Positions 7,803 through 11,275 of a stretch of 64,000 nucleotides of DNA are shown here, piece after piece. Every line of letters starts with the position of its first letter. Positions within the stretch are counted from its first letter, which is position 1. A program made the translations under genes and the position numbers. The notes beneath the pieces were generated by a model. The model worked only from the letters and a program-made list of their open reading frames with translations. It searched no databases and had not been told where the DNA came from. Origin of the DNA: Escherichia coli (GTDB lineage Bacteria; Pseudomonadota; Gammaproteobacteria; Enterobacterales; Enterobacteriaceae); NCBI RefSeq assembly GCF_050920415.1, contig NZ_CP169309.1. The stretch is one strand, 5' to 3'.

Positions 7803-10535
7803 ATGATCCAGATTGATTTAGCCACGCTGGTAAAGCGGCTTAACCCCTTTGCAAAACAGGCGCTGGAAATGGCTGCCTCGGAGTGTATGAGCCAGCAGGC
7901 CAGTGAGATCACCGTTGCCCATGTGCTGTTGCAGATGCTGGCTATCCCGCGCAACGACGTAAGGGTAATTACCGAACGCACAGGCATCAGTGCGGAGGAG
8001 CTACGCCAGGCGCTGACCGTGGAGAGTTATCCCAGCGGACGTTCCGCCGAAGGCTATCCCAGCTTCTCCCCGATGCTGGTCGAATGGCTCAAGGAGTCAT
8101 GGCTGCTGGCCTCGGCCCAGATGCAGCACAGCGAACTACGCGGCGGCGTGCTGCTGCTGGCTCTGCTGCATTCACCGCTGCGCTATATTCCACCCGCTGC
8201 TGCCCGTCTGCTGACGGCCATAAACCGCGACCAGTTACAGCAGGATTTCGCGTCATGGACTAAAGAGTCCGCCGAATCCGTGAACCAGGTTGGCGGACAG
8301 GCACCCGGCACGCCTGAAACCGGCGACAGCGGGCTTGCCCGCTACGCCAAAAACATGACCGAAGATGCCCGTAACGGCAAACTTGACCCTGTACTGTGCC
8401 GTGACCATGAAATCGACCTGATGATCGACATTCTCTGCCGCCGTCGTAAAAACAATCCGGTGGTGGTGGGTGAAGCGGGTGTGGGTAAAAGTGCCTTAAT
8501 CGAAGGGCTGGCGCTGCGTATTGTCTCAGGCCAGGTGCCGGACAAGCTGAAAAACACCGATATTATGACCCTTGACCTCGGCGCATTGCAGGCCGGGGCG
8601 TCAGTGAAGGGCGAGTTTGAAAAACGCTTTAAGGGACTAATGGCGGAAGTTATCTCGTCTCCTGTGCCGGTCATTCTGTTTATCGACGAAGCGCATACCC
8701 TGATTGGCGCGGGAAATCAGGCCGGAGGACTCGATGTTTCCGGGTTGCTGAAACCGGCGCTGGCGCGGGGTGAACTGAAAACCATCGCCGCCACCACCTG
8801 GAGCGAATACAAAAAATACTTCGAGAAAGATGCCGCGCTTTCGCGCCGCTTCCAGTTAGTGAAAGTCAGTGAACCTACCGCAGCAGAGGCCACCATTATT
8901 CTGCGTGGTCTGTCGGCGGTCTATGAACAGTCTCACGGCGTGCTGATTGATGATGACGCCTTGCAGGCCGCTGCGACATTAAGTGAGCGTTATCTCTCCG
9001 GGCGTCAATTGCCGGACAAAGCGATTGATGTGCTGGATACGGCCTGCGCCCGCGTGGCAATCAACCTGTCATCGCCACCAAAGCAAATCTCAGCGCTGAC
9101 CACCCTGAGCCACCAGCAGGAGGCGGAAATTCGCCAGCTTGAGCGCGAGCTTCGCATCGGGCTGCGTACCGACACCTCGCGGATGACGGAGGTGCTGGTG
9201 CAGTATGATGTAACGCTGACGGCGCTGGATGAACTGGAAGCCGCCTGGCACCAGCAACAGGCGCTGGTACAGGAGATTATTACGCTACGCCAGCAGTTAC
9301 TGGGCGTTGCAGAGGACACAGATGCCGTAGTGGATACGCCGTCAGAGTCAGAACAGGATAATACCGGTGCCGTACTGGCTGATGAAGCTGGCAGCGTACA
9401 GCCGGAAGAGACTGTTGAAACAGTTTCCCCGGTACAGCGTCTGGCACAGCTCACTGCCGAGCTGGACGCCCTGCATAACGACCGGTTGCTGGTTTCCCCG
9501 CACGTCGATAAAACGCAGATTGCGGCGGTAATCGCAGAATGGACCGGCGTACCGCTTAACCGCCTGTCGCAGAATGAAATGTCGGTCATCACCAACCTGC
9601 CCGTATGGCTTGGAGACACTATCAAAGGCCAGGACCTGGCGATTGCCAGCCTGCATAAACATCTGCTGACTGCACGCGCCGACCTGCGCCGTCCGGGACG
9701 TCCGCTTGGCGCGTTCCTGCTGGCTGGCCCCAGCGGCGTGGGTAAAACCGAAACCGTCCTGCAACTGGCGGAACTGCTCTACGGCGGTCGCCAGTATCTG
9801 ACCACCATCAATATGTCCGAGTTTCAGGAAAAACACACCGTCTCGCGGCTGATTGGTTCCCCTCCGGGCTATGTCGGCTATGGCGAAGGTGGCGTCCTGA
9901 CCGAAGCGATTCGCCAGAAACCCTACTCGGTGGTGCTGCTCGATGAAGTGGAAAAAGCGCACCCGGATGTACTCAACCTGTTCTACCAGGCGTTTGACAA
10001 GGGCGAGATGGCAGACGGTGAAGGCCGCCTGATTGACTGTAAAAATATCGTTTTCTTCCTGACCTCCAACCTTGGCTACCAGGTGATTGTCGAACACGCC
10101 GATGACCCGGAAACCATGCAGGAAGCCCTCTATCCGGTGCTGGCGGACTTCTTTAAACCTGCCCTGCTGGCGCGCATGGAAGTGGTGCCTTACATGCCGC
10201 TGTCGAAAGAGACGCTCGCTACCATTATTGCCGGGAAACTGGCCCGCCTGGATAACGTGCTGCGCAGCCGCTTTGGCGCGGACGTGATTATTGAGCCGGA
10301 AGTGACGGACGAAATCATGAGCCGTGTCACCCGCGCTGAAAACGGCGCAAGGATGCTCGAATCGGTCATCGACGGCGACATGCTGCCGCCGCTCTCGCTG
10401 CTGCTGTTGCAGAAGATGGCAGCCAACACGGCGATTGCCCGGATTCGTCTGTCGGCGGCAGACGGTGCATTCACAGCAGACGTGGAAGATGCTCAGGACG
10501 ACGAGTCCGTCACAGAGGATGAAACGGTTTTATGA
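7803..10535 (+). CDS. clpV: T6SS AAA+ ATPase ClpV (TssH)
   Basis: 910 aa; two Walker A motifs (GEAGVGKS and GPSGVGKT); ClpB-like N-domain; AAGGA upstream. Confidence 0.95.
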   Translation: MIQIDLATLVKRLNPFAKQALEMAASECMSQQASEITVAHVLLQMLAIPRNDVRVITERTGISAEELRQALTVESYPSGRSAEGYPSFSPMLVEWLKESWLLASAQMQHSELRGGVLLLALLHSPLRYIPPAAARLLTAINRDQLQQDFASWTKESAESVNQVGGQAPGTPETGDSGLARYAKNMTEDARNGKLDPVLCRDHEIDLMIDILCRRRKNNPVVVGEAGVGKSALIEGLALRIVSGQVPDKLKNTDIMTLDLGALQAGASVKGEFEKRFKGLMAEVISSPVPVILFIDEAHTLIGAGNQAGGLDVSGLLKPALARGELKTIAATTWSEYKKYFEKDAALSRRFQLVKVSEPTAAEATIILRGLSAVYEQSHGVLIDDDALQAAATLSERYLSGRQLPDKAIDVLDTACARVAINLSSPPKQISALTTLSHQQEAEIRQLERELRIGLRTDTSRMTEVLVQYDVTLTALDELEAAWHQQQALVQEIITLRQQLLGVAEDTDAVVDTPSESEQDNTGAVLADEAGSVQPEETVETVSPVQRLAQLTAELDALHNDRLLVSPHVDKTQIAAVIAEWTGVPLNRLSQNEMSVITNLPVWLGDTIKGQDLAIASLHKHLLTARADLRRPGRPLGAFLLAGPSGVGKTETVLQLAELLYGGRQYLTTINMSEFQEKHTVSRLIGSPPGYVGYGEGGVLTEAIRQKPYSVVLLDEVEKAHPDVLNLFYQAFDKGEMADGEGRLIDCKNIVFFLTSNLGYQVIVEHADDPETMQEALYPVLADFFKPALLARMEVVPYMPLSKETLATIIAGKLARLDNVLRSRFGADVIIEPEVTDEIMSRVTRAENGARMLESVIDGDMLPPLSLLLLQKMAANTAIARIRLSAADGAFTADVEDAQDDESVTEDETVL

Positions 10536-11275
10536 GCAGGTTGCGCGTTTTCCGGCAGACAGGATTGTTTATCGCGGGCCTGATGGCGGGCTTACCCGCC
10601 AGTGCCGCACCCGCAGAAACATCGTCAATGGCCGGTGTGGCGGTAGCTGTCGCCACAGCGACACCGCCGGATGCGACAGCCACGTTACAGGCCATGCAGT
10701 CCTGTCGCCAGGAGACGGCGGCGCTGGATCGGCTTGACTGTTATGACCGCATTCTTGCGCCGGAACAGGCTGGCTTTGGTGGTGCCGCACTGGTGAAAGC
10801 TCGTTACCAGGGTGAAGCCTGGACCCGTGCGACAGAACAGGAAAAACGCCGCCAGGGCAACACCACGGAGCTGCTGGTAACGCAAGTACCGGGTGAACGC
10901 CCGACGGTGGTGATAACCACCCCGGCTATCGGCCATGTTCCGCCGCGCCCGGTGCTGATGTTCAGTTGCGTGGACAATATCACCCGGATGCAGGTGGCGC
11001 TGATGCACCCTCTGGATGTCCATGATATCGCCGTCACCCTGAATGCCGACAGCCGGGCATTGCGCAGCCACTGGTTTGTGCGCGAGAACGGCACCCTGCT
11101 GGAGTCCAGCCGGGGGTTATCCGGTATCGATGAAATTAAGCAACTGTTCGGCGCAAAAACGCTGACGGTGGATACCGGCACAGACAACGCCGCCGGAAAG
11201 CTGACCTTTAACATTGACGGGCTGGCACGGGTTATTGCGCCGCTACGCGACGCCTGCCACTGGGCGGGAGAATAA
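10532..11275 (+). CDS. vasI: T6SS-associated secreted/periplasmic protein, VasI family
   Basis: 247 aa; signal peptide (LFIAGLMAGLPASAAPA); conserved cysteines (CRQETAALDRLDCYDRIL); 4-nt overlap with clpV; same position as vasI in vas-type clusters. Confidence 0.75.
   Translation: MSRLRVFRQTGLFIAGLMAGLPASAAPAETSSMAGVAVAVATATPPDATATLQAMQSCRQETAALDRLDCYDRILAPEQAGFGGAALVKARYQGEAWTRATEQEKRRQGNTTELLVTQVPGERPTVVITTPAIGHVPPRPVLMFSCVDNITRMQVALMHPLDVHDIAVTLNADSRALRSHWFVRENGTLLESSRGLSGIDEIKQLFGAKTLTVDTGTDNAAGKLTFNIDGLARVIAPLRDACHWAGE

What the first reader, a model, noticed from the sequence alone, without database searches (positions are those of the whole stretch)
7803..11275. vas-type gene order but no sigma-54 activator (vasH) between clpV and vasI
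The order matches my recollection of the V. cholerae vas cluster, where vasH sits between clpV and vasI. Here clpV and vasI overlap by 4 nt (ATGA), so no such regulator is encoded, and I found no convincing sigma-54 -24/-12 element near hcp. Regulation of this cluster must come from elsewhere, perhaps a promoter upstream of the window.
Basis: partly seen in the sequence, partly recalled or inferred. Interest (0 to 1): 0.3.

Follow-up and report, generated by a model that had tools for sequence, protein, structure and literature searches.

The report
E. coli T6SS cluster lacking vasH
This is the common type VI secretion gene cluster that E. coli carries next to the aspV tRNA gene; it has no built-in sigma-54 activator (vasH) because its lineage lost that gene, so the absence is real but ordinary.

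Summary
clpV/tssH (7803-10535) and vasI (10532-11275) overlap by ATGA. No enhancer-binding protein is encoded in the window or in the whole yafV-aspV island, which I read from a near-identical E. coli genome. No credible -24/-12 element lies in any intergenic region.

The cluster is the well-known E. coli "T6SS2" found in EHEC and APEC. The same contiguous junction occurs in 2732 of 5426 complete E. coli genomes.

It reads as one tightly packed tssB-to-hcp operon. The operon starts about 1.45 kb upstream of the window, after a 701-bp divergent control region of 32% GC. Published work shows that H-NS silences homologous clusters.

A comparison of 80 related loci adds context. Outgroups keep a canonical VasH. 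Hafnia has a VasH without the GAFTGA loop. Yersinia, Serratia, Photorhabdus, Proteus and Morganella keep a conserved 265-aa GAF-plus-HTH remnant without the AAA+ domain. The E. coli clade, nested among these, has nothing left.

The absence is therefore a derived loss. Interest is low for the window itself. The conserved GAF-HTH remnant in relatives is the more interesting by-product.

The parts
1..558 (+). 3' part of tssC (sheath large subunit); the gene and tssB start upstream of the window
   Evidence: Pfam VipB/VipB_2; PGAP annotation of the near-identical genome
563..7793 (+). tssE 563-988, tssF 994-2835, tssG 2799-3848, tagH/FHA 3865-5145, tssJ 5142-5666, tssK 5669-7015, tssL/dotU 7038-7793
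   Evidence: Pfam matches; annotation; gaps between genes of -37 to +22 nt
7803..10535 (+). clpV/tssH, the AAA+ ATPase that recycles the sheath
   Evidence: TIGR03345, 1119 bits; Pfam AAA_2, AAA_lid_9, ClpB_D2-small
10532..10535 (+). ATGA overlap of the clpV stop and the vasI start; this is the position where relatives carry vasH
   Evidence: Sequence; the same contiguous junction in 2732 of 5426 complete E. coli genomes; relatives with the short vasH have taTGA overlaps on both sides of it
10532..11275 (+). vasI (tagO), a T6SS accessory protein
   Evidence: PF11319 at 2.8e-54; TIGR03360, 272 bits
11280..18136 (+). tssA/vasJ 11280-12722, tssM 12832 (or GTG at 12742)-16269, vasL 16281-17639, hcp ('hcp2A') 17657-18136, which ends the operon
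   Evidence: Pfam; TIGR03344 for Hcp; annotation
18137..19669 (-). AT-rich (35% GC) island border: yafT-like lipoprotein gene 18478-19263 and tRNA-Asp aspV 19593-19669, the insertion site
   Evidence: ARAGORN; GC content; Sakai annotation of yafT and aspV

Best explanation
The window carries the right-hand part of the E. coli aspV-associated type VI secretion island, the cluster called T6SS2 in APEC and the EHEC O157 T6SS. It is of the same vas type as the V. cholerae cluster. Its lineage has completely lost the in-cluster regulator vasH, so clpV now runs straight into vasI with a 4-nt ATGA overlap that suggests translational coupling. Fourteen genes from tssB to hcp are packed with gaps of 22 nt or less, apart from one ambiguous tssM start, and are most likely transcribed as one operon of about 19.6 kb. 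I infer that transcription starts from sigma-70-type promoter(s) in the 701-bp, 32% GC divergent region between tssB and the oppositely oriented hcp-vgrG operon, about 1.45 kb upstream of the window. I also infer, from experiments on homologous clusters, that this region is silenced by H-NS, and that expression requires relief of that silencing by factors encoded outside the island. The hcp genes, which VasH/sigma-54 controls in V. cholerae, are here wired directly into the two divergent operons, so no sigma-54 cascade is needed. Shown here: gene content, the junction, the absence of any bEBP or sigma-54 motif, and the phylogenetic nesting. Inferred: promoter location, a single transcript, H-NS control in this strain, and the deletion mechanism.
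For: The whole-island annotation contains no regulator. There are no bEBP motifs or VasH-profile hits. No vasH-like DNA, short or Hafnia type, occurs in any of 5426 E. coli genomes. Sigma-54 motifs are at or below chance and absent from intergenic regions. Operon packing and the GC contrast of 32% against 56% come. The junction is fixed in 2732 genomes. O157 Sakai has the same layout, including the 4-nt clpV/vasI overlap. The EHEC aspV cluster is poorly expressed in vitro and an assayed T6SS gene rises 60-fold in a hns mutant (PMC5363993). In APEC, the vipA2-hcp2A and hcp2B-vgrG2 operons are derepressed in a hns mutant and are not controlled by Fur (PMC5874247). In V. cholerae, RpoN/VasH control hcp and vgrG3 but not the structural cluster (PMC3439928). 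Evidence for loss rather than ancestral absence: among 80 VasI loci, 2 have a full bEBP, 32 a short VasH remnant and 46 none. In the TssK+ClpV+TssM tree the E. coli clade (bootstrap 100) is sister to a clade bearing the remnant (bootstrap 97), inside a larger remnant-bearing group, with the full-VasH Hafnia, Halomonas and Osedax-symbiont clusters outside. In remnant-bearing clusters taTGA overlaps flank the gene, so a deletion between them reproduces the E. coli junction.
Against: No transcription start site was mapped, and the simple sigma-70 scan found no strong + strand promoter close to tssB. Internal promoters cannot be excluded. The H-NS data come from other strains whose clusters are only about 80-95% identical to this allele. 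The 701-bp control region of this allele is found in only 552 genomes, so regulation may differ between variants. The tree is neighbour-joining with short backbone branches and bootstraps of 90-97, and it was not checked with maximum likelihood. My sigma-54 scan had no positive control, because no site was found in the loci with full VasH either; their targets probably lie outside the fetched flanks. E. coli has its own bEBPs, which I could not survey.
Confidence: 0.8

Rival explanations
1. vasH was not lost but moved. An orphan VasH-like or other enhancer-binding protein elsewhere in the E. coli chromosome activates sigma-54 promoters in the island.
For: E. coli encodes RpoN and about a dozen bEBPs (general knowledge). 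I could not run a protein-level search of the whole genome.
Against: Neither the short vasH nor the Hafnia vasH has a DNA match in 5426 E. coli genomes. No intergenic GG-N10-GC site scores better than 8 of 12 in the island. Overall motif counts are below the shuffled expectation. Close relatives had already lost the sigma-54-contacting parts of VasH before the gene disappeared.
Confidence: 0.07
2. Absence is ancestral. The clpV-vasI arrangement is the original one, and vasH was inserted later in the Vibrio, Aeromonas and Halomonas lineages.
For: 46 of the 80 sampled loci lack the gene, and sampling was biased toward Enterobacterales by the query alignment.
Against: A bEBP sits at exactly this position in several deeply separated VasI clades. 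Intermediate forms are homologous to VasH at both the N-terminal domain and the HTH. The E. coli clade is nested inside clusters that bear the remnant. An ancestral absence would require repeated insertion of related genes at the same site.
Confidence: 0.05
3. The junction is an artefact or a recent strain-specific deletion.
For: This exact allele is rare: only 2 genomes are at least 99% identical over 5 kb.
Against: The contiguous junction is present in 2732 of 5426 complete genomes at 90-100% identity, with no variant carrying an insert. It is also present in O157 Sakai and in 45 further loci from other genera. Both reading frames are intact with full-length family matches.
Confidence: 0.01

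Closest known systems
Vibrio cholerae vas (large T6SS) cluster VCA0107-VCA0123
   Same: Same subtype and the same gene order from vipA/B through vasF, clpV, VCA0118 (vasI), VCA0119 (vasJ), vasK and VCA0121 (vasL).
   Different: V. cholerae has vasH (VCA0117) between clpV and vasI, and RpoN/VasH-dependent hcp and vgrG3 operons. Here vasH is absent. One hcp is fused to the end of the structural operon and another heads the divergent operon, and there is no -24/-12 motif.
E. coli aspV island T6SS of EHEC O157:H7 (EDL933 z0243-z0275; Sakai ECs_0213-0237) and APEC/NMEC 'T6SS2'
   Same: Same chromosomal site (between aspV/yafT and yafV), the same gene order, the same 4-nt clpV/vasI overlap, two hcp genes and a divergent hcp-vgrG operon. 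These clusters are reported as H-NS-silenced.
   Different: This window's allele is a minority variant: about 80-95% DNA identity to most E. coli, and closest to the Pseudocitrobacter and E. whittamii clusters. Its effector cargo and IS content differ.
vas-type clusters of Yersinia (including Y. pestis), Serratia, Photorhabdus, Xenorhabdus, Proteus, Providencia, Morganella and the second Trabulsiella cluster
   Same: Same structural gene order tssF...tssL-clpV-[x]-vasI-vasJ-tssM-vasL; the closest outgroups of the E. coli clade.
   Different: They keep a gene of about 265 aa between clpV and vasI. It consists of the VasH N-terminal GAF-like domain, a long helix and a Fis-type HTH, and lacks the AAA+ sigma-54 module. 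It is under purifying selection, with dN/dS of 0.05-0.18.
Enhancer-binding-protein relatives that act without sigma-54 (e.g. TyrR, DhaR, GAFTGA-less NtrC of Rhodobacter; from general knowledge, Bush & Dixon 2012 as cited)
   Same: The Hafnia VasH (GAFTGA loop deleted, Walker B DE changed to EN) and the short GAF-HTH form fit the known pattern of bEBPs drifting to sigma-54-independent roles.
   Different: E. coli has gone further and retains no part of the gene.

Membership tests
vas-type (V. cholerae-like, i1) type VI secretion cluster | Complete set of core genes tssA-M plus hcp | tested here: met
   tssC, E, F, G, J, K, L, H, A, M and hcp are in the window. tssB, the full tssC, vgrG and PAAR lie just upstream in the near-identical genome.
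vas-type (V. cholerae-like, i1) type VI secretion cluster | Lineage-specific accessory genes vasI, vasJ-type tssA, vasL and tagH, in vas order | tested here: met
   PF11319, PF16989, PF12486 and PF20232 are matched in the V. cholerae order.
VasH/RpoN-regulated T6SS | In-cluster bEBP with a Sigma54_activat AAA+ domain and GAFTGA loop between clpV and vasI | tested here: not met
   clpV and vasI overlap. There is no motif or profile hit in the window or island, and none is annotated.
VasH/RpoN-regulated T6SS | -24 GG / -12 GC promoters upstream of hcp or vgrG | tested here: not met
   The best intergenic match is 8 of 12, and counts are at or below chance. Caveat: the scan had no positive control.
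VasH/RpoN-regulated T6SS | Expression depends on rpoN | not testable with these tools
   Needs an rpoN mutant and expression assays.
H-NS-silenced horizontally acquired island | tRNA-associated insertion with atypical composition and an AT-rich control region | tested here: met
   The island lies between aspV/yafT and yafV. The operon is 56% GC against 51% for the flanking chromosome, the control region is 32% GC and the border 35%.
H-NS-silenced horizontally acquired island | H-NS binding and derepression in a hns mutant | not testable with these tools
   Shown for homologous EHEC and APEC clusters only (PMC5363993; PMC5874247).

The most novel reading that the evidence does not exclude
The E. 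coli clpV-ATGA-vasI junction is the end point of a stepwise dismantling of VasH inside Enterobacterales. The steps are: canonical bEBP; then a GAFTGA-less form with a degenerate Walker B (Hafnia); then a conserved AAA+-less GAF-HTH protein (Yersinia, Serratia, Photorhabdus, Proteus, Morganella and others); then nothing, reached at least twice independently. The intermediate GAF-HTH protein would be an undescribed, sigma-54-independent T6SS regulator family. It may still sense the signal read by the VasH N-terminal domain, and its loss in the E. coli clade handed control entirely to chromosomal factors such as H-NS.
Probability: 0.5. Interest if true: 0.5.

Novelty: already known. Interest (0 to 1): 0.25.

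Why it matters
For the window itself it matters little. It confirms that this widespread E. coli T6SS is not a sigma-54/VasH system, so the V. cholerae regulatory model should not be transferred to it, and its control must be sought in the AT-rich tssB/hcp divergent region and in H-NS anti-silencing. The comparative by-product is more useful. It gives a clean natural series showing how an in-cluster enhancer-binding protein is dismantled domain by domain. It also points to a conserved GAF-HTH protein in Yersinia pestis, Proteus mirabilis, Morganella, Photorhabdus and other genera as an untested candidate T6SS regulator.

Tried and rejected
- An alignment of 79 diverse VasI proteins was too divergent for the search for related loci. 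I used a 13-sequence enterobacterial sub-alignment instead, so Vibrio and Aeromonas loci were not retrieved. The V. cholerae order was therefore taken from the literature.
- I tested whether the short VasH remnant is RovC, the hexameric activator of Yersinia T6SS4. It has no sequence match to any PDB chain beyond a weak HTH hit, and RovC belongs to a different cluster. Rejected.
- I looked for sigma-54 sites in loci with a full VasH as a positive control. None turned up within the fetched flanks, so the scan's sensitivity is unproven.
- The 261-aa ORF between hcp and aspV was considered as a possible replacement regulator. It is the yafT lipoprotein gene. Rejected.
- An Rfam scan of the control region gave only noise.
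- The papers by Bernard et al. 2011 and Kitaoka et al. 2011 were not held.
- A literature search for prior description of the short VasH form found nothing relevant. That is not proof of novelty.
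Full report
**What is in the window**

The first 18 kb of the window encode, on the + strand:
- the 3' end of tssC, then tssE, tssF, tssG, tagH (FHA), tssJ, tssK and tssL
- clpV/tssH at 7803-10535 and vasI at 10532-11275
- a VasJ-type tssA, tssM, vasL and hcp

Every gene has a strong Pfam or NCBIfam match. These genes are followed by an AT-rich stretch with a lipoprotein gene, tRNA-Asp at 19593-19669, and then dnaQ, rnhA, a methyltransferase gene, gloB and mltD. The window is 99.98% identical to E. coli strain MFDS1022581 over the shared 21 kb. Fetching 49 kb of that genome (L001) shows the complete island between yafV and aspV.

**Checking the observation**

- The clpV stop and the vasI start share ATGA at 10532-10535.
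- The island annotation contains no regulator.
- No six-frame translation of the window or of L001 contains the GAFTGA, bEBP Walker A or ESELFGH signatures.
- A profile built from full and short VasH proteins finds nothing better than E=2.3.
- The sigma-54 consensus TGGCAC-N5-TTGCW with up to 2 mismatches occurs 36 times, against 43 expected. It occurs 23 times against 32 expected in L001, with none in the tssB/hcp intergenic region.
- When the obligatory GG/GC dinucleotides are required, the best intergenic site scores 8 of 12. The only 10/12 sites lie inside tssA and vasL.

**How common it is**

A 311-bp probe across the junction matches contiguously in 2732 of 5426 complete E. coli genomes, and no genome has an insert at that position. 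O157:H7 Sakai has the same island at aspV with the same 4-nt clpV/vasI overlap.

This is the cluster described as the EHEC T6SS (PMC5363993) and as APEC "T6SS2" with hcp2A and hcp2B (PMC5874247). The exact allele in the window is a minority variant. Only 2 genomes are at least 99% identical over 5 kb, and most are 80-95% identical.

**How it is most likely expressed**

From tssB to hcp the genes are separated by -37 to +22 nt. The one exception is a 19- or 109-nt gap before tssM, depending on which start is chosen. This suggests a single operon of about 19.6 kb with translational coupling.

The operon starts at tssB, about 1.45 kb upstream of window position 1. In front of it lies a 701-bp divergent intergenic region of 32% GC, compared with 56% for the operon. 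That region also serves the opposite hcp-vgrG-effector operon.

Evidence from homologous clusters:
- In EHEC EDL933 the aspV cluster is barely expressed in vitro, and an assayed T6SS gene rises 60-fold in a hns mutant.
- In APEC, both vipA2-hcp2A and hcp2B-vgrG2 are derepressed without H-NS and are not Fur-controlled. The signal that relieves silencing is unknown.
- In V. cholerae, RpoN/VasH control the hcp operons and vgrG3 but not the structural cluster (PMC3439928).

The lack of vasH in E. coli therefore mainly means that the hcp and vgrG modules are wired directly into the two divergent operons instead of into a sigma-54 cascade.

Promoter positions were not determined. The crude sigma-70 scan gave no convincing + strand site near tssB.

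**Is the absence ancestral or derived?**

A full HMMER search gave diverse VasI proteins. Context look-ups and one genome-collection scan gave 92 loci. I classified what lies between clpV and vasI with phmmer and Pfam. There are three states among the 80 genome loci.

| State | Loci | Where found |
|---|---|---|
| Full bEBP of 500-550 aa | 2 | Halomonas, an Osedax symbiont |
| ORF of about 265 aa | 32 | Yersinia (including Y. pestis), Serratia, Photorhabdus, Xenorhabdus, Proteus, Providencia, Morganella, Edaphovirga, Enterobacillus, Entomohabitans, a second Trabulsiella cluster |
| Nothing | 46 | Escherichia, Citrobacter, Buttiauxella, Lelliottia, Enterobacter, Rahnella, Pasteurellaceae, Gilliamella, Budvicia, Pragia and others |

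Outside those 80, the context look-ups found a full bEBP in Hafnia/Obesumbacterium and on two metagenome contigs.

Details of the vasH forms:
- The short ORF aligns with the N-terminal 190 residues and the C-terminal HTH_8 of the Hafnia VasH. The whole AAA+ module is missing.
- Canonical VasH proteins keep GETGxGK and ESELFGH-KGAF[TS]GA.
- The Hafnia protein has lost the GAFTGA loop, and its Walker B DE is changed to EN.
- The short gene is intact in all 32 loci and has dN/dS of 0.05-0.18.
- An AlphaFold model (pLDDT 80) shows a GAF-like domain, a 50-residue helix and a three-helix HTH. The top fold matches include the GAF domains of the Aquifex bEBPs Nlh1 and Nlh2.

I built a neighbour-joining tree of TssK+ClpV+TssM (2473 columns, 100 bootstraps) and rooted it on the canonical-VasH clusters.
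- Hafnia is sister to all the rest (bootstrap 100).
- One clade is entirely without the gene: Pasteurellaceae, Budviciaceae and Gilliamella (bootstrap 94).
- The E. coli clade, also without the gene (bootstrap 100), is sister to a clade bearing the short form (bootstrap 97). Both sit inside a larger group bearing the short form (bootstrap 92).

The most parsimonious reading has three steps:
- Sigma-54 competence was lost first.
- The AAA+ domain was then deleted.
- The remnant was finally lost, at least twice, once on the branch leading to the E. coli/Citrobacter/Rahnella clusters.

In clusters with the short form, both the clpV/vasH' and the vasH'/vasI junctions are taTGA overlaps. A deletion between them would leave exactly the ttaTGAg junction seen in E. 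coli. This deletion mechanism is an inference.

**Rival explanations**

- *A relocated vasH or an orphan bEBP.* This is unlikely. No vasH-like DNA occurs in any E. coli genome and no sigma-54 site lies in the island's intergenic regions. I could not survey the native bEBPs, and the motif scan lacks a positive control.
- *Ancestral absence.* This is contradicted by the tree and by the homologous intermediates.
- *An artefact or a private deletion.* This is excluded.

**Comparison with what is known**

The cluster works like, and is a member of, the vas-type T6SS. All structural and accessory hallmarks tested are met. It is not a member of the VasH/RpoN-regulated subset: both sequence-testable defining features, the bEBP and the -24/-12 promoters, were tested and not met. 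It matches the published EHEC and APEC aspV T6SS.

**Verdict**

The finding is accurate but describes the normal, already documented organisation of a very common E. coli island, so interest is low (0.25) and novelty is "already known". The added value is the demonstration that the absence is a derived loss with surviving intermediates. The GAF-HTH VasH remnant conserved in Yersinia, Proteus, Morganella, Photorhabdus and others has no NCBIfam family and did not surface in my literature searches. It deserves follow-up as a candidate sigma-54-independent T6SS regulator.

Noticed in passing
L058:9133-9927 (Y. pestis), L044:9186-9980, L074:9121-9906 and 29 further loci (alignment A3): A conserved gene of about 265 aa lies between clpV and vasI. 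It consists of the VasH N-terminal GAF-like domain, a long helix and a Fis-type HTH, with the sigma-54 AAA+ domain cleanly missing. dN/dS is 0.05-0.18, the AF2 model has pLDDT 80, the top fold hits include the Aquifex Nlh1/Nlh2 GAF domains, and no NCBIfam family matches. It is a candidate sigma-54-independent T6SS regulator.
   Followed up: partly
L007:6496-8004 (Hafnia alvei / Obesumbacterium proteus): A full-length VasH whose AAA+ domain is degenerate. The ESELFGH-GAFTGA loop is deleted and Walker B DE is changed to EN. Sigma54_activat scores only 50 bits, against 230 in Halomonas. It probably cannot activate sigma-54.
   Followed up: partly
L001:25878-26578 (about 1.45-2.15 kb upstream of window position 1): The 701-bp AT-rich tssB/hcp control region of this allele is found in only 552 of 5426 E. 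coli genomes, whereas the clpV-vasI junction is in 2732. The regulatory region therefore seems far more variable, or mosaic, than the structural operon.
   Followed up: no
window 1-18136: This T6SS allele is rare in E. coli: 2 genomes are at least 99% identical, and most are 80-95%. In the core-protein tree it groups with the Pseudocitrobacter and E. whittamii clusters, which hints at exchange of island variants between genera.
   Followed up: no
L030/L053, L032/L049, L036/L044 (Trabulsiella); L062/L077 (Budvicia); L025/L027 (Citrobacter youngae): Several genomes carry two paralogous vas-type clusters. In Trabulsiella one copy has no vasH and the other keeps the short GAF-HTH form.
   Followed up: no
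L015 (MAG 'Collinsella sp.') and L019 (MAG 'Bacillota bacterium'): Contigs assigned to Gram-positive MAGs carry clpV-vasI-vasJ genes 90-92% identical to the E. coli proteins. This is almost certainly binning contamination in the public records.
   Followed up: no
window 12742 vs 12832: The tssM start is ambiguous. The longest ORF starts at GTG 12742, 19 nt after tssA. PGAP starts it at 12832, which leaves a 109-nt gap and is the only sizeable gap in the operon.
   Followed up: no
L001:1-25877 (upstream of the window): The left half of the island is a patchwork: three vgrG genes (one truncated by IS21), PAAR genes, Tae4- and Tle1-type effectors with DUF3304/DUF4123 partners, IS2, ISAs1 remnants and a group II intron.
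   Followed up: no
PMC5363993: The EHEC paper describes z0254 as homologous to 'vasH (clpV homolog)'. This is a mislabel: the gene is clpV/vasG, and the cluster has no vasH.
   Followed up: yes
window 27816-27892 and 31242-31436: A second tRNA-Asp, plus tRNA-Ala and tRNA-Ile on the - strand, consistent with an rRNA operon (rrnH-like) downstream of the island. Ordinary.
   Followed up: no
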